UHGV virus genome: UHGV-0356378
DNA length: 11,307 nucleotides
Source: a virus
Reading direction: 5' to 3' (one strand)
The notes beneath the pieces are model-generated. The model worked only from the letters and a program-made list of their open reading frames with translations, was not told the DNA's origin and ran no database searches. Each line of letters begins with the position of its first letter. Within the stretch, counting starts at the first letter, position 1. Below, piece by piece: positions 313 to 11,182 of this stretch. The translations under genes and the position numbers were made by a program.

Positions 313-387
313 GTCCTCTTAGTTAAATGGATATAACGAGCCCCTCCTAAGGGCTAATTGCAGGTTCGATTCCTGCAGGGGACACCA
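313..387 (+). tRNA. argW: tRNA-Arg, anticodon CCU (reads AGG)
   Basis: A 75-nt cloverleaf can be drawn: acceptor stem GTCCTCT pairing with AGGGGAC (one G-U), anticodon stem CCCCT/AGGGG around loop CCTAA with CCT in anticodon position, T-arm GCAGG-TTCGATT-CCTGC, discriminator A and encoded CCA. The known attachment site of KplE1-type prophages is argW. Confidence 0.9.
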
Positions 388-388
388 T
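373..388. repeat. attL core: 16-bp CTGCAGGGGACACCAT, the 3' end of argW, repeated exactly at 11167-11182
   Basis: Exact 16/16 identity between 373-388 and 11167-11182, with mismatches immediately on both sides of each copy. The integrase gene lies just inside the left copy and the excisionase gene just inside the right copy. Confidence 0.8.
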
Positions 389-482
389 TTATCAGTTCGC
401 TCCCATCCGTACCAGTCCGCAAAATCCCCTGAATATCAAGCCTTCCGTATATTCACAGTTCGTAATGGTTCGCGTCAGATCG

Positions 483-512
483 TTGACAGCCGCACTCCAT
501 GACGGGTAAAAA
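483..512 (+). promoter_or_regulatory. Candidate sigma-70 promoter for the integrase gene: -35 TTGACA (483-488), 17-18 bp spacer, -10 GTAAAA/TAAAAA (506-512)
   Basis: Perfect -35 hexamer with an A/T-rich -10 at correct spacing, 37 bp upstream of the ATG at 549. In KplE1 the intS promoter is reported to lie within attL. Sequence-pattern evidence only. Confidence 0.35.
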
Positions 513-548
513 GTGGATAAAATAATTTTACCCACCGGATTTTTACCC
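504..548. promoter_or_regulatory. Cluster of three GGGTAAAA motifs (504-511 forward; 526-533 and 541-548 as TTTTACCC, i.e. reverse orientation); candidate integrase arm-type or excisionase binding sites
   Basis: The same 8-mer occurs three times within 45 bp directly upstream of the integrase ATG and twice more in tandem at 11088-11109 beside attR. One given 8-mer is expected about 0.35 times in 22.6 kb of two-strand sequence. Confidence 0.4.
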
Positions 549-1706
549 ATGCTCACCGTTAAGCAGATTGAAGCAGCAAAGCCGAAAGAAAAACCATACC
601 GCCTTCTCGATGGTAATGGCCTGTACCTTTATGTTCCTGTATCCGGGAAAAAGGTATGGCAGCTTCGCTACAAGATTGACGGTAAGGAGAAAATCCTGAC
701 CGTCGGAAAATATCCGCTTATGACTTTGCAGGAAGCAAGGGATAAGGCATGGACTGCGAGGAAAGACATCTCGGTTGGCATCGATCCGGTAAAGGCGAAA
801 AAGGCTTCGTCTAACAACAATTCATTTAGTGCGATTTACAAGGAATGGTACGAGCACAAGAAGCAAGTCTGGTCAGTAGGCTATGCAAATGAACTTGCAA
901 AAATGTTTGATGACGACATTTTACCTATCATCGGCGGCCTTGAAATTCAGTATATTGAGCCGATGCAACTGCTGGAAGTAATCCGCAGATTTGAAGATCG
1001 CGGTGCAATGGAGCGAGCAAATAAAGCCCGCAGAAGATGCGGCGAGGTTTTCCGTTACGCTATTGTCACCGGCAGGGCTAAATATAACCCGGCACCTGAC
1101 CTTGCTGACGCCATGAAGGGATACCGCAAGAAGAACTTCCCGTTTCTTCCTGCAGACCAGATCCCGGCATTCAACAAAGCACTGGCAACATTTTCAGGAA
1201 GTATCGTATCGCTCATTGCAACCAAAGTTTTACGCTACACAGCCCTCAGAACAAAAGAACTTCGTTCCATGCTATGGAAGAACGTCGATTTTGAAAACAG
1301 GATTATCACCATCGACGCCAGTGTGATGAAGGGACGCAAAATTCATGTGGTCCCGATGTCAGACCAGGTGGTTGAACTTCTCACTACGCTAAGCTCAATC
1401 ACCAAACCAGTCTCAGAGTTTGTTTTTGCCGGGCGCAACGATAAGAAGAAGCCAATCTGCGAGAACGCGGTATTGCTTGTGATCAAACAAATCGGCTATG
1501 AGGGTCTGGAAAGCGGTCACGGATTCAGGCATGAATTCAGCACGATTATGAACGAGAACGAATGGCCTGCTGATGCTATTGAAATGCAACTGGCACATGC
1601 CAACGGCGGATCTGTGCGCGGTATTTACAACCATGCGCAGTATCTCGATAAGCGCAGAGAAATGATGCAGTGGTGGGCGGACTGGCTTGATGAAAAGCCT
1701 GAGTGA
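549..1706 (+). CDS. intS: P4-type tyrosine integrase with N-terminal arm-DNA-binding domain, 385 aa from the ATG at 549 (the ORF track's 513 start is a GTG 12 codons upstream)
   Basis: N-terminus LTVKQIEAAKPKEKPYRLLDGNGLYLYVPVSGKKVWQLRYKIDGKEK is the typical P4-integrase arm-binding domain. The C-terminal half has tyrosine-recombinase signatures (ALRTKELRS box I arginine, HGFRHEF box II, catalytic Tyr in RGIYNHAQY). It sits directly inside attL at argW. Length and sequence match what I recall of K-12 IntS. Confidence 0.9.
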   Translation: MLTVKQIEAAKPKEKPYRLLDGNGLYLYVPVSGKKVWQLRYKIDGKEKILTVGKYPLMTLQEARDKAWTARKDISVGIDPVKAKKASSNNNSFSAIYKEWYEHKKQVWSVGYANELAKMFDDDILPIIGGLEIQYIEPMQLLEVIRRFEDRGAMERANKARRRCGEVFRYAIVTGRAKYNPAPDLADAMKGYRKKNFPFLPADQIPAFNKALATFSGSIVSLIATKVLRYTALRTKELRSMLWKNVDFENRIITIDASVMKGRKIHVVPMSDQVVELLTTLSSITKPVSEFVFAGRNDKKKPICENAVLLVIKQIGYEGLESGHGFRHEFSTIMNENEWPADAIEMQLAHANGGSVRGIYNHAQYLDKRREMMQWWADWLDEKPE

Positions 1707-1819
1707 TCCACCTTAACAACTATCGAATAGCACAAAGCCTTGCAACCCAGTACAAAGCTTTGTGTGTCTAATTTCTTTCTCATGCAATTGGTCTATTATT
1801 AACCATGTAATTTGGCGCT

Positions 1820-1866
1820 TACATCATGATGTACACAAAGTCAAATGCTAAACAATTTTTTAGCAT
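1820..1866. promoter_or_regulatory. Two palindromic elements in the integrase/membrane-gene spacer: perfect 14-bp palindrome TACATCATGATGTA (1820-1833) and inverted repeat ATGCTAAA-caattt-TTTAGCAT (1845-1866)
   Basis: Both checked base by base as self-complementary. They lie 120-170 bp upstream of the start codon of the AT-rich membrane-protein gene, where an operator or switch site would be expected. Function not shown. Confidence 0.3.
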
Positions 1867-1987
1867 GTTATGATTGTTAAGATGTTCTGTTCATGAAGTT
1901 GTTAGTGGGAAGCTCTGCATTAAAGTGATAAAGTGTGATAAATTCAATCTGAATCTTGTTGTGAGATGAAGCAAGTATGGTAAAGCT

Positions 1988-10749: not shown

Positions 10750-10827
10750 GAGTGGAAATAAAGAAATCACCCCGCCTCACACTCGATGAGGCATTTTCAT
10801 TTATCAAGATATACAGACCTACCATCG

Positions 10828-10847
10828 CCGCATCAATGCGGTTTTTT
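10828..10847 (+). terminator. Intrinsic terminator: CCGCAT-ca-ATGCGG hairpin followed by TTTTTTATT
   Basis: Perfect 6-bp inverted repeat (effective 5-bp stem with 4-nt loop) followed by a T6 run, about 80 bp downstream of the 71-aa ORF and 45 bp upstream of the excisionase gene. Confidence 0.5.
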
Positions 10848-10857
10848 ATTGCCTGAT

Positions 10858-10873
10858 TTGCAGGTTCGATTCC
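10858..10873 (+). repeat. 16-nt exact copy of the argW T-arm (TTGCAGGTTCGATTCC, identical to 358-373); not a functional tRNA
   Basis: Exact 16/16 match to the tRNA segment that directly precedes the att core. No cloverleaf can be completed around it, since the downstream bases do not restore the T-stem. Confidence 0.4.
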
Positions 10874-10892
10874 CTATTCGGAGATAGCACTC

Positions 10893-11093
10893 ATGCAACA
10901 CGAACTACAGCCTGATTCACTGGTTGATTTGAAATTCATCATGGCCGATACTGGCTTCGGTAAAACCTTCATCTACGACCGGATTAAGTCCGGCGACCTG
11001 CCAAAAGCCAAAGTTATCCACGGGCGAGCAAGATGGTTATATCGTGACCATTGTGAATTCAAAAATAAGCTCTTAAGCCGCGCTAATGGGTAA
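10893..11093 (+). CDS. torI: Excisionase / recombination directionality factor of the AlpA/Xis winged-helix family, 66 aa (TorI-like)
   Basis: 66-aa ORF with a GGAG ribosome-binding site. The sequence MQHELQPDSLVDLKFIMADTGFGKTFIYDRIKSGDLPKAKVIHGRARWLYRDHCEFKNKLLSRANG has the AlpA-type helix-turn-helix and wing layout. It sits immediately inside attR, opposite intS, as TorI does in K-12 KplE1. Identity to TorI is from memory. Confidence 0.8.
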   Translation: MQHELQPDSLVDLKFIMADTGFGKTFIYDRIKSGDLPKAKVIHGRARWLYRDHCEFKNKLLSRANG

Positions 11094-11109
11094 AATAGCG
11101 GGTAAAATA
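11088..11109 (+). promoter_or_regulatory. Tandem direct repeat GGGTAAAATA x2 (11088-11097 and 11100-11109, 12-bp period); candidate arm-type integrase or excisionase binding sites at attR
   Basis: Two exact 10-mers overlapping the excisionase stop codon, 58 bp from the attR core, sharing the GGGTAAAA core with the three copies at 504-548 beside attL. Confidence 0.4.
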
Positions 11110-11166
11110 TTTTTTACATCTAAAAAACACCATTCCAATCAATCCCCTGCCGCTTCAAGTAGATGT

Positions 11167-11182
11167 CTGCAGGGGACACCAT
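11167..11182. repeat. attR core: CTGCAGGGGACACCAT, exact copy of 373-388
   Basis: Exact 16-bp identity with the tRNA 3' end, with mismatches on both flanks. Downstream sequence (11183-11307) has no prophage-like genes and is presumably host DNA. Confidence 0.8.

What the first reader, a model, noticed from the sequence alone, without database searches (positions are those of the whole stretch)
373..11182. Complete att-bounded defective prophage with both integrase and excisionase retained
Both 16-bp att cores are exact and both recombination genes (integrase at the left end, TorI-type excisionase at the right end) look intact, so the remnant should still excise. For K-12 KplE1, excision by IntS plus TorI has been reported, and the core sequence here matches what I recall for KplE1. 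The cargo differs from the K-12 version as I remember it (gtrABC-like genes and tail-fibre fragments there; P22-type ejection genes, tailspike and a single membrane protein here). The argW site therefore holds alternative decay products of related phages.
Basis: partly seen in the sequence, partly recalled or inferred. Interest (0 to 1): 0.45.

Follow-up and report, generated by a model that had tools for sequence, protein, structure and literature searches.

The report
Excisable argW prophage remnant carrying wzy
This is a 10.8-kb leftover of a P22-like phage sitting in the argW tRNA gene of an E. coli O5 strain, an ordinary and already described kind of element. Its one notable feature is a phage O-antigen polymerase gene that seems to have replaced the host's own broken copy.

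Summary
CTGCAGGGGACACCAT occurs exactly twice: at 373-388, the 3' end of argW, and at 11167-11182. Removing the interval in silico gives an empty yfdC-argW-dsdC site found uninterrupted in 911 of 5426 complete E. coli genomes. Joining the two ends reproduces the attP of the live phage HF4s.

The element is a KplE1/CPS-53-type argW prophage remnant. TorI is 66/66 identical to K-12 and IntS 380/385. The five TorI pentamers and the arm-type repeats are conserved. It arose from an Sf6/HK620/HF4s-like Lederbergvirus by one internal deletion of about 28 kb (junction 9982-9984). That deletion removed the head, lysis, replication and immunity genes, and with them pL and N.

Excision competence is therefore likely but not shown. 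torI has no recognisable promoter, and IntS carries four substitutions absent from the active relatives compared. This module and its variable cargo at argW are already published, so the finding itself is ordinary.

The interesting part is the cargo. The "membrane protein" is a Wzy-family polymerase found in 8 of 5426 genomes, all of serogroup O5. The chromosomal O5 wzy is frameshifted in this strain and, independently, in ZF34/ZF31. Independent decay products all keep intS-wzy.

The parts
313..387 (+). argW, tRNA-Arg(CCT); its 3' end is rebuilt by the attL core
   Evidence: ARAGORN; Rfam RF00005, 63.4 bits; identical to K-12 argW
373..388 (+). attL core, CTGCAGGGGACACCAT
   Evidence: Exact repeat; same 16 nt as published for KplE1 (PMC2951348)
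395..482 (+). attL arm with the five TorI-type pentamers: GTTCG 395-399, GTCCG 414-418, GTTCG 458-462, GTTCG 468-472, GATCG 478-482
   Evidence: Pentamer sequences and the two-block layout are as described in PMC2951348. The five differences from K-12 (442, 450, 454, 464, 474) all fall outside the pentamers. Assignment of the sites is by sequence only.
499..548 (+). intS promoter region overlapping TAAA-containing arm-type (P') repeats: GGGTAAAAA 504-512, GGATAAAAT 515-523, ATTTTACCC 525-533, TTTTTACCC 540-548
   Evidence: 100% identical to K-12 over this stretch; promoter-like site at 499-526; TAAA motif and the overlap of P'1 with the -10 box per PMC2951348
549..1706 (+). intS, 385-aa tyrosine integrase
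   Evidence: Pfam Arm-DNA-bind_3, Phage_int_M and Phage_integrase; 380/385 identical to K-12 IntS; R234, K261, H324, R327, H350 and Y360 invariant in alignment A4; annotated intS in RefSeq
1988..3331 (+). Wzy-family O-antigen (oligosaccharide repeat unit) polymerase, 447 aa; low-GC cargo gene
   Evidence: TIGR04370, 45.8 bits against a cut-off of 40; phrog_14022 E 1e-131; several hydrophobic segments; GC 0.32-0.39; present in 8 of 5426 genomes, all O5
3369..5582 (-). P22-type tailspike, 737 aa: conserved head-binding domain plus a receptor-binding part with no sequenced-phage or PDB relative
   Evidence: Pfam Head_binding, residues 4-114; tblastn against phages matches only residues 1 to about 139; no PDB hit for residues 112-737; identical protein in the B25FEP full prophage
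5747..7744 (-). gp16-type DNA ejection/transfer protein, 665 aa
   Evidence: phrog_770 E 1e-237; PF26808 Phage_P22_gp16 on the identical gene in L005
7744..9171 (-). gp20-type ejection protein, 475 aa
   Evidence: Pfam Inj_translocase E 2e-73; phrog_917
9181..9873 (-). gp7-type ejection protein, 230 aa
   Evidence: Pfam P22_gp7 E 2e-134, full length
9876..9983 (-). 3'-terminal 35 codons of gp14 (DUF2824, head assembly); truncated gene
   Evidence: phrog_651, profile positions 121-158 of 158; RefSeq annotates it as a partial pseudogene
9982..9984 (.). Junction of the single internal deletion (about 27.8 kb relative to HF4s). It joins gp14 to the base pair just before the ASCH gene start.
   Evidence: Three-way alignment with the two HF4s parental regions. 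The junction is unique to this genome among 5426 complete genomes but recurs 100% identical on independent contigs.
9985..10269 (+). ASCH-domain protein, a distal gene of the early-left (pL) operon
   Evidence: RefSeq annotation; phrog_625; same position in HF4s
10342..10509 (+). 55-aa early-left protein of unknown function
   Evidence: phrog_676; RefSeq hypothetical protein
10534..10749 (+). 71-aa ORF with a hydrophobic N-terminus, not annotated in RefSeq
   Evidence: Translation; phrog_15342 E 7e-52 over its full length; region present in IME10, HK022 and 434
10271..10842 (+). Four terminator-like hairpins upstream of torI: 10271-10292, 10303-10322, 10774-10792, 10827-10842
   Evidence: Scan found 5 sites against 1.7 expected; no promoter-like site in 9700-11307 against 3.2 expected; homologous region in HK022 is annotated tL4 terminator
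10858..10873 (+). TTGCAGGTTCGATTCC, an exact copy of the argW T-arm segment 358-373, 19 nt upstream of the torI ATG; contains a GTTCG pentamer
   Evidence: no shuffle gave two matches; also present in K-12, ZF34 and the free phage HF4s; overlaps the putative 'pI' promoter annotated in Sf6
10893..11093 (+). torI, 66-aa recombination directionality factor (excisionase) and TorR inhibitor
   Evidence: 66/66 identical to K-12 TorI; RefSeq torI; phrog_66 excisionase
11088..11166 (+). attR arm with two GGGTAAAAT arm-type-like repeats (11088-11096, 11100-11108)
   Evidence: Alignments with K-12, Sf6 and HF4s; private T/T at 11113 and 11115 where the others have C/C
11167..11182 (+). attR core, CTGCAGGGGACACCAT
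   Evidence: the chromosome resumes at 11183 toward dsdC

Best explanation
The interval 373-11182 is a KplE1/CPS-53-type defective prophage in the 3' end of argW of E. coli FDAARGOS_1248, an O5-cluster strain.

Origin. It derives from a full-length Sf6/HK620/HF4s-like P22-family (Lederbergvirus) temperate phage carrying intS-wzy-tailspike, like the intact prophage still present in strain B25FEP. One illegitimate internal deletion of about 28 kb ran from inside gp14 to the base before the ASCH gene. It removed the tail-needle, head, packaging, lysis, late-regulation, replication and immunity genes and most early-left genes. The element can therefore no longer replicate, package or lyse.

Recombination module. 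This part is structurally intact: two identical 16-bp cores, the attL arm with five TorI pentamers and the arm-type IntS repeats overlapping the intS promoter, IntS, TorI, and the attR arm. By homology with K-12 KplE1, IntS, TorI and host IHF should recombine attL with attR. The products would be an intact argW attB and a non-replicating 10.8-kb circle that is then lost.

Regulation. torI sits at the far end of what was the N-antiterminated pL operon. It now has no recognisable promoter and four terminator-like hairpins upstream. Spontaneous excision should therefore be rare and would depend on TorI supplied in trans or on fortuitous transcription.

Why it persists. Retention is best explained by its cargo, a phage Wzy-family polymerase that acts on the O5 O-unit and has taken over from the chromosomal O5 wzy, which is frameshifted in this strain.

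Shown here: anatomy, boundaries, origin by one deletion, sequence identity of the module, the wzy-O5 association, and the wzy pseudogene. Inferred: excision competence, low excision frequency, and Wzy function.

The confidence of 0.6 is for the whole statement including excision competence. For identity, boundaries and origin alone it is above 0.95.
For: - Boundaries: exact cores; empty site in 911 of 5426 genomes; in-silico attP matches the live-phage attP.
- Module: TorI 100% and IntS 99% identical to K-12; attL and attR 95-99% identical with all TorI pentamers and arm repeats intact; published excision of KplE1 using the same parts (PMC2951348).
- Origin: gene order collinear with HF4s and Sf6; single junction mapped at 9982-9984; full-length sibling prophage with the identical tailspike protein in B25FEP; the structural genes that remain are full length.
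- Real, not an assembly artefact: 17 contigs carry the exact IntS allele, and the places shown have this architecture; L005 is 100% identical over all 11,307 bases.
- Regulation: no promoter-like sites and four + strand terminator-like hairpins upstream of torI; homology to HK022 tL4 and phage 434 terminators.
- Cargo: TIGR04370 above its cut-off; all 8 carrier genomes lie among the 35 O5 genomes (hypergeometric P about 1e-18, or about 8e-12 if carriers are collapsed to 5 lineages).
- Replacement of the host gene: chromosomal wzy is frameshifted by two different 1-bp deletions in carriers only (3/8 against 0/27, P = 0.009).
- Selection on the cargo: independent remnants ZF34 and TUM9754 keep intS-wzy while losing other parts.
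Against: - No experiment here shows excision.
- IntS carries T114N, D135Y, H337N and V346M, none seen in K-12, Sf6, CUS-3 or HF4s. The ratio of private nonsynonymous to synonymous changes is raised (4:13 against 1:27, P about 0.06), which could mean relaxed selection or loss of function.
- Two private changes (11113, 11115) lie next to the attR arm repeats.
- If the remnant holds the only working wzy, excision would be counter-selected, so the module may be on its way to decay.
- The frameshift in the chromosomal wzy of this single assembly could be a sequencing error. It lies in a GG dinucleotide, not a long homopolymer.
- Wzy activity and linkage specificity are unproven.
- The carrier genomes are not phylogenetically independent.
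Confidence: 0.6

Rival explanations
1. The remnant is locked in place. Its recombination module looks intact but no longer works, because the private IntS substitutions, the attR changes, or the lack of any torI expression prevent excision. On this view it is a fixed genomic islet, not an excisable element.
For: Four IntS substitutions are absent from all experimentally active relatives compared. Three are shared with another wzy-bearing remnant, TUM9754, and D135Y is unique. The private nonsynonymous fraction is raised. Private T/T at 11113 and 11115 lies next to the arm repeats. There is no promoter-like site upstream of torI and pL/N are deleted. Selection against losing the only intact wzy would favour inactivation.
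Against: The catalytic residues and all domains are intact, and the ORF is full length. TorI is identical to the active K-12 protein. The core, TorI pentamers and arm repeats are unchanged. K-12 KplE1 also lacks pL and immunity genes yet excises when TorI is supplied (PMC2951348).
Confidence: 0.25
2. The element is not a decaying prophage but a phage satellite or otherwise mobilisable island. On this view it keeps int/xis, ejection proteins and a tailspike so that it can be packaged and spread by a helper P22-like phage.
For: It is compact and att-bounded with an intact int/RDF pair. The retained virion genes (gp7, gp20, gp16, tailspike) are all full length. The identical element appears in many samples.
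Against: There is no replication, primase, packaging, pac/terminase, capsid-remodelling or repressor gene. A single junction accounts for the whole structure as a deletion of a normal phage genome. The junction is unique among 5426 complete genomes, and the independent contigs with it match the window at 99.8-100%, L005 across both chromosomal flanks; this fits clonal inheritance better than horizontal spread. At 10.8 kb it is far below a P22-type headful.
Confidence: 0.03
3. The short prophage is an assembly artefact, a collapsed full-length prophage in one genome record.
For: Only one complete genome among 5426 has the junction.
Against: 17 independently assembled contigs from metagenomes and sequencing runs carry the exact IntS allele. 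The places shown have the same gene order, and L005 and L006 are 100% identical across the junction.
Confidence: 0.01

Closest known systems
KplE1 / CPS-53 cryptic prophage of E. coli K-12 (IntS, TorI; Panis, Mejean, Ansaldi)
   Same: Same insertion site (3' end of argW, between yfdC and dsdC) and same 16-bp core. Identical TorI and 99% identical IntS. Near-identical attL and attR with the same TorI pentamers and arm repeats. int and RDF lie at opposite ends, and the intS promoter overlaps attL. Similar size (10.2 kb against 10.8 kb). No repressor or lytic genes.
   Different: The interior is entirely different. K-12 has yfdGHI (gtr), tail-fibre fragments and early genes yfdK-T. Here there are wzy, a P22-type tailspike, gp16/gp20/gp7, a gp14 stub, ASCH and small ORFs. 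This remnant is one deletion away from an intact phage, whereas K-12's is a mosaic of fragments and pseudogenes. IntS has four extra substitutions.
Live argW-integrating Lederbergviruses: Sf6, HK620, CUS-3, HF4s, Kapi1
   Same: Same attP core lying between xis and int. Same gene order: int, O-antigen-modifying cargo gene, tailspike, gp16, gp20, gp7, gp14, and at the other end ASCH, small ORF, xis. Shared parts are 94-96% identical in DNA.
   Different: Those phages are complete at 38-40 kb. This element lacks about 28 kb. The cargo gene is a Wzy-family polymerase rather than oac (Sf6), gtrABC (HF4s) or neuO (CUS-3). The receptor-binding part of the tailspike has no match in sequenced phages.
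Seroconverting phages that bring their own O-antigen polymerase (Salmonella epsilon15, Pseudomonas D3; phage Wzy in Acinetobacter K127)
   Same: A temperate-phage-borne Wzy next to the receptor-binding tailspike, associated with a single O-unit type and expected to change the inter-unit linkage. E. coli O5ab and O5ac are reported to share one tetrasaccharide unit joined by different linkages (PMC7496230). The D3 precedent is cited in PMC7685785 and the Acinetobacter case in PMC9241936.
   Different: No Iap-like small inhibitor ORF was recognisable next to wzy. Instead, in two lineages the resident wzy has been knocked out by a frameshift. The function is not demonstrated here. What I state about epsilon15 comes from my own knowledge, not from a tool.
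att-flanked excisable wzy (rfc) locus of Salmonella Typhimurium (Charity et al. 2025, PMC12074656)
   Same: The O-antigen polymerase gene lies outside the O-antigen cluster, between direct repeats that behave like attL and attR. Its loss gives phage resistance and a circular product.
   Different: The Salmonella locus is 2.6 kb with 113-bp repeats, and the sections read mention no integrase or RDF of its own. Here wzy sits on a 10.8-kb element with 16-bp cores and its own IntS and TorI, and excision has not been observed.

Membership tests
KplE1/CPS-53-type argW recombination module | Integration into the 3' end of argW, with the 16-nt core CTGCAGGGGACACCAT duplicated at both ends | tested here: met
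   core sequence as printed in PMC2951348; empty site recovered in 911 genomes
KplE1/CPS-53-type argW recombination module | IntS-type tyrosine integrase next to attL, transcribed away from the tRNA, with its promoter inside attL | tested here: met
   380/385 identity to K-12 IntS; Pfam domains; promoter and arm-repeat stretch identical to K-12
KplE1/CPS-53-type argW recombination module | TorI-type RDF at the opposite end next to attR, with attP lying between xis and int in the phage form | tested here: met
   66/66 identity; in-silico attP collinear with HF4s xis-attP-int
KplE1/CPS-53-type argW recombination module | Five TorI pentamers (GTTCG/GATCG/GTCCG) in two blocks, plus TAAA-containing arm-type IntS sites on attL | tested here: met
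   All pentamers and repeats are present and unchanged; the differences from K-12 fall between them (site description in PMC2951348)
KplE1/CPS-53-type argW recombination module | Excision dependent on IntS, TorI and IHF, giving attB and a circular attP | not testable with these tools
   Inferred from sequence identity only. Caveats: no promoter found for torI and four unusual IntS substitutions.
P22-like temperate phage (Lederbergvirus) prophage | P22-type tailspike head-binding domain, gp7/gp20/gp16 ejection proteins and gp14, in the P22-like order | tested here: met
   Pfam Head_binding, P22_gp7 and Inj_translocase; PHROGs; collinear with HF4s, Sf6 and CUS-3
P22-like temperate phage (Lederbergvirus) prophage | Complete genome: terminase, portal, coat, lysis, replication and immunity modules | tested here: not met
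   None of these genes is in the window. They lie in the roughly 28 kb missing relative to HF4s and B25FEP. The element is therefore a defective derivative, not a functional member.
Wzy (oligosaccharide repeat unit / O-antigen polymerase) | Match to a curated polymerase model above its cut-off, and a polytopic membrane protein | tested here: met
   TIGR04370, 45.8 bits against a cut-off of 40, covering residues 40-423; several hydrophobic segments by Kyte-Doolittle; no Pfam hit
Wzy (oligosaccharide repeat unit / O-antigen polymerase) | Polymerises a defined O-unit with a defined linkage | not testable with these tools
   Indirect evidence only: all 8 carriers have the O5 cluster, and the resident wzy is frameshifted in carriers only.
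Phage satellite (PICI / P4-like) | Own replication/primase module, helper-responsive regulator, and capsid or packaging redirection genes | tested here: not met
   No such genes were found by Pfam, NCBIfam or PHROGs.

The most novel reading that the evidence does not exclude
The remnant is a domesticated, still att-bounded carrier of the strain's only functional O-antigen polymerase. On this reading the phage Wzy joins O5 units with a different linkage, which would be the unexplained genetic basis of the O5ab/O5ac split. It has made the cluster wzy dispensable, since that gene was lost by frameshift twice independently. Selection on wzy would then explain why independent decay products at argW all keep intS-wzy. 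Because IntS, TorI and the att sites are intact, O-antigen polymerisation in this lineage would sit on an excisable element. Its loss would give a semi-rough, O-antigen-phage-resistant cell, as in the excisable wzy locus of Salmonella Typhimurium.
Probability: 0.45. Interest if true: 0.55.

Novelty: new member of a known kind. Interest (0 to 1): 0.3.

Why it matters
The KplE1-type module is present in roughly a quarter to a third of complete E. coli genomes, and its conservation with variable cargo is already published.

What could matter is the cargo:

- A phage-borne Wzy restricted to O5 strains, with the resident wzy dead in two lineages, gives a concrete and cheaply testable candidate for the gene behind the O5ab/O5ac linkage difference.
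- It would be a documented E. coli case of serotype conversion by polymerase replacement. The 2019 E. coli O-antigen review mentions this only as a hypothesis, for O118/O151.
- It shows why in-silico O-typing from the galF-gnd cluster alone can mislead.
- It illustrates how a cargo gene can drive retention of a prophage remnant.

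Tried and rejected
- **Pfam on the 447-aa protein and on gp16:** no hit at E 0.01. NCBIfam and PHROGs resolved both.
- **tblastn of Wzy against 50,697 phage records:** no match. The family is known only from prophages (phrog_14022).
- **Tailspike receptor-binding part:** no match in phage records beyond about residue 139, and none in PDB sequences. One PDB call failed on a frame error.
- **Iap-like small inhibitor ORF:** searched between intS and wzy. 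Only short, non-hydrophobic ORFs with no support were found, so this idea was rejected.
- **Promoter for torI:** none passed the consensus scan. A putative 'pI' is annotated in the Sf6 record at the equivalent place but is unvalidated.
- **Rfam on the whole window:** only argW.
- **Microhomology at the deletion junction:** 0-1 nt, so no recombination signature.
- **Metagenome contig L006:** I considered that it might be an excised circle. It carries 39 nt of chromosomal flank on each side, so it is the integrated form, broken at the strain-variable boundary.
- **Literature on O5ab/O5ac genetics and E. coli phage-borne wzy:** no paper describing this gene was found. The library lacks most subscription journals, so absence is weak evidence.

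Full report
**1. Observation**

The window is 100% identical to the chromosome of E. coli FDAARGOS_1248 (NZ_CP069542.1), between yfdC and dsdC. ARAGORN and Rfam find one tRNA, Arg(CCT), which is argW, at 313-387. The 16-mer CTGCAGGGGACACCAT occurs exactly twice, at 373-388 and 11167-11182, in direct orientation. None of 200 shuffles gave two matches. The repeat unit is 10,794 bp.

**2. Boundaries**

Two independent comparisons place the boundaries exactly at the cores.

- Deleting the interval in silico (left flank, one core, right flank; 600 bp) gives a sequence present uninterrupted in 911 of 5426 complete E. coli genomes. The best matches listed are 100% identical single pieces.
- Joining the attR arm, the core and the attL arm in silico gives a sequence collinear with, and about 98% identical to, the xis-attP-int region of the free phage HF4s.

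The refutation criterion 'boundaries lie elsewhere' is therefore not met.

**3. Recombination module**

The core is the one printed for KplE1 in PMC2951348. That paper also states that the 10.2-kb K-12 remnant excises in vivo. It describes an in vitro reaction with IntS, TorI and IHF on linear attL and attR.

| Feature | Result |
|---|---|
| TorI | 66/66 identical to K-12 |
| IntS | 380/385 identical to K-12; full-length Arm-DNA-bind_3, Phage_int_M and Phage_integrase domains |
| IntS residues R234, K261, H324, R327, H350, Y360 | Invariant in the alignment |
| attL vs K-12 | Five base differences |
| TorI pentamers (GTTCG 395, GTCCG 414, GTTCG 458, GTTCG 468, GATCG 478) | Untouched |
| TAAA-type arm repeats and intS promoter (499-548) | Untouched |
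| attR arm vs K-12 | Three base differences |

Caveats:

- Four IntS substitutions (T114N, D135Y, H337N, V346M) are absent from K-12, Sf6, CUS-3, HF4s and B25FEP. Three are shared with another wzy-bearing remnant (TUM9754), and D135Y is private.
- Four of the 17 private intS base changes are nonsynonymous. Between K-12 and HF4s the figure is 1 of 28 (P about 0.06).
- T/T at 11113 and 11115, next to the arm repeats, is also private.

**4. Origin**

The gene order matches intact Lederbergviruses that integrate at argW (HF4s, Sf6, CUS-3, IME10). Shared segments are 94-96% identical in DNA.

- Left part: intS, cargo gene, tailspike (-), gp16 (-), gp20 (-), gp7 (-), gp14 stub (-).
- Right part: ASCH (+), 55-aa ORF (+), torI (+).

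A three-way alignment with the two parental regions of HF4s puts a single junction at 9982-9984. It joins the last 108 nt of gp14 to the base before the ASCH start, with 0-1 nt of microhomology. Relative to HF4s about 27.8 kb is missing: tail needle, gp10, gp4, coat, scaffold, portal, terminase, lysis genes, Q, nin, replication genes, cII, cro, cI, N and most early-left genes.

Strain B25FEP carries a full-length prophage at argW with the same intS-wzy-tailspike, and the tailspike protein accession is identical. The genes that remain here are full length. The 'decay' is thus one clean deletion of a normal phage.

The junction is unique among 5426 complete genomes but it is not an artefact. The exact IntS allele occurs on 17 other contigs from metagenomes and sequencing runs, and the places shown have the same architecture. 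One contig (L005) is 100% identical over all 11,307 bases.

**5. How it should work, and its limits**

By homology, IntS bound to core and arm sites, TorI bound to its pentamers on attL, and host IHF should recombine attL with attR. This would restore argW and release a 10.8-kb circle. The circle has no replication or packaging function and would be diluted out.

The trigger is doubtful. In intact relatives xis lies at the end of the pL operon, and here pL and N are gone. The scan finds no sigma-70-like site in 9700-11307, against 3.2 expected. It finds four + strand terminator-like hairpins upstream of torI. This region is homologous to the annotated tL4 of HK022 and to the terminators of phage 434. 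The Sf6 record annotates a putative, unvalidated 'pI' promoter at the equivalent of about 10850-10877. The KplE1 papers call PtorI uncharacterised and use plasmid-borne TorI to drive excision.

My reading is that the element is excision-competent if TorI is supplied, with low spontaneous frequency. I put this at about 0.6. The main rival, a silently inactivated module, I put at about 0.25.

**6. How ordinary is it?**

The intS-type left end is present at 80% coverage or more in 1860 of 5426 complete genomes. The torI-attR right end is present in 1405 of 5426. PMC3509656 and PMC2951348 already state that various (pro)phages at argW share this module, including HK620, Sf6, CUS-3, APEC-O1 and UTI89. 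Kapi1 is a further example.

**7. The cargo: the part worth a second look**

- **Identity.** The 'single membrane protein' (1988-3331, 447 aa, GC 0.32-0.39) passes the curated cut-off of TIGR04370, oligosaccharide repeat unit polymerase. It matches phrog_14022 and is polytopic. It has no tblastn match in 50,697 phage records.
- **Distribution.** Its DNA occurs in only 8 of 5426 complete genomes. The host's galF-side cluster is 'O5 family', and its own wzy is annotated as frameshifted. The O5 wzx-wzy segment occurs in 35 of 5426 genomes, and all 8 carriers are among them. The hypergeometric P is about 1e-18, or about 8e-12 if carriers are collapsed to five lineages. Phylogenetic non-independence applies.
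- **Loss of the host gene.** Alignment shows two different 1-bp deletions in the cluster wzy. FDAARGOS_1248 has lost G at nt 468, giving a stop after 158 codons. ZF34/ZF31 have lost T at nt 560, giving a stop after 195 codons. The other 32 O5 genomes, including all 27 non-carriers, keep the full 2574-bp length. This is 3/8 against 0/27, P = 0.009.
- **Retention.** Independent decay products keep the gene. ZF34 has intS-wzy-IS1 followed by early-gene fragments and torI. TUM9754 has intS-wzy, a tailspike stub and IS1, followed by a second, tandem argW prophage.
- **Related genes.** A 49%-identical homologue occupies the same intS-wzy-tailspike slot in other E. coli. An 82%-identical one lies in an Enterobacter prophage beside a convergent 827-aa gene.
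- **Chemistry.** E. coli O5ab and O5ac are reported to share one tetrasaccharide unit 'connected via different linkages' (PMC7496230). O5ac has GalNAc-(1->2)-Qui3NAc (PMC9912281). From my own knowledge, GalNAc is the initiating sugar, so that bond would be the one made by Wzy.
- **Literature.** The 2019 E. coli O-antigen review raises a second wzy outside the cluster only as a hypothesis, for O118/O151. I found no paper describing this gene, but the library is incomplete.

I therefore propose, as an inference, that this phage Wzy polymerises O5 units with an alternative linkage and has replaced the resident enzyme in this strain. That would explain why the remnant is retained.

**8. Comparison and verdict**

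- The element works like K-12 KplE1 and is a member of that family. All sequence-defined features are met. Excision itself could not be tested.
- It is a defective derivative of a Lederbergvirus, so the complete-genome criterion is not met.
- It is not a satellite, since no satellite hallmark genes were found.
- The cargo resembles the polymerase-bearing seroconverting phages (epsilon15 and D3; partly from my own knowledge, with D3 cited).
- In the novel reading it also resembles the att-flanked excisable wzy locus of Salmonella Typhimurium.

The finding as written is confirmed, already explained and of low surprise. The wzy/O5 lead raises the overall interest modestly.

Noticed in passing
window 1988-3331; host O-antigen cluster in L009 47001-48316 (NZ_CP069542 2287000-2288315): The remnant's Wzy-family gene occurs in 8 of 5426 complete E. 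coli genomes, and all 8 belong to the 35 genomes with the O5 cluster. The chromosomal O5 wzy is frameshifted by two different 1-bp deletions in carriers (FDAARGOS_1248; ZF34/ZF31) and in none of 27 non-carriers. This is a possible genetic basis for the O5ab/O5ac linkage difference.
   Followed up: partly
window 10858-10873 (copy of 358-373); also L003 (HF4s) 19042, L002 (K-12) 12276: An exact 16-nt copy of the argW T-arm (TTGCAGGTTCGATTCC) lies 19 nt upstream of the torI start codon. In argW this segment directly abuts the att core. It is also present in the free phage genome, about 309 bp from the attP core with xis in between. It contains a TorI-type GTTCG pentamer and overlaps the putative 'pI' promoter annotated in Sf6. 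Its origin and function are unexplained.
   Followed up: partly
window 10534-10749 (+): A 71-aa ORF with a hydrophobic N-terminus and a charged C-terminus is not annotated in RefSeq. It matches phrog_15342 over its full length (E 7e-52). It lies in a roughly 325-bp segment that HF4s lacks between the 55-aa ORF and xis but that IME10, HK022 and 434 share.
   Followed up: partly
window 3369-5249 (-), tailspike residues about 112-737: The receptor-binding part of the tailspike has no tblastn match in 50,697 phage records and no PDB sequence relative. It has low GC like the adjacent wzy, with which it forms a convergent pair. A similar convergent pair of wzy and a large gene exists in an Enterobacter prophage (L017).
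   Followed up: partly
window 549-1706 (IntS residues 114, 135, 337, 346): IntS substitutions N114, N337 and M346 are shared by two wzy-bearing remnants (this one and TUM9754) but are absent from K-12, Sf6, CUS-3, HF4s, B25FEP and ZF34. Y135 is private. This may be an early sign of relaxed selection on the integrase.
   Followed up: partly
L013 (ZF34, NZ_CP047461) and L014 (TUM9754, NZ_CP128939), argW loci: Other O5 strains hold independently decayed versions that keep intS-wzy. ZF34 has IS1 and IS3 insertions, a leftover second integrase fragment and a truncated dsdC. TUM9754 has an IS1-truncated tailspike followed by a second, tandem intS prophage at an internal att core.
   Followed up: partly
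window 9700-11307: No sigma-70-like promoter match was found (3.2 expected), but there are four + strand terminator-like hairpins between the ASCH gene and torI. This fits a former N-antiterminated pL operon that has lost its promoter.
   Followed up: yes
L006 (ENA metagenome contig, 10,888 bp) = window 334-11221: A metagenome contig ends exactly 39 nt outside each att core. This is probably an assembly-graph break, where co-occurring E. coli strains differ at argW. It is the integrated form, not an excised circle.
   Followed up: yes
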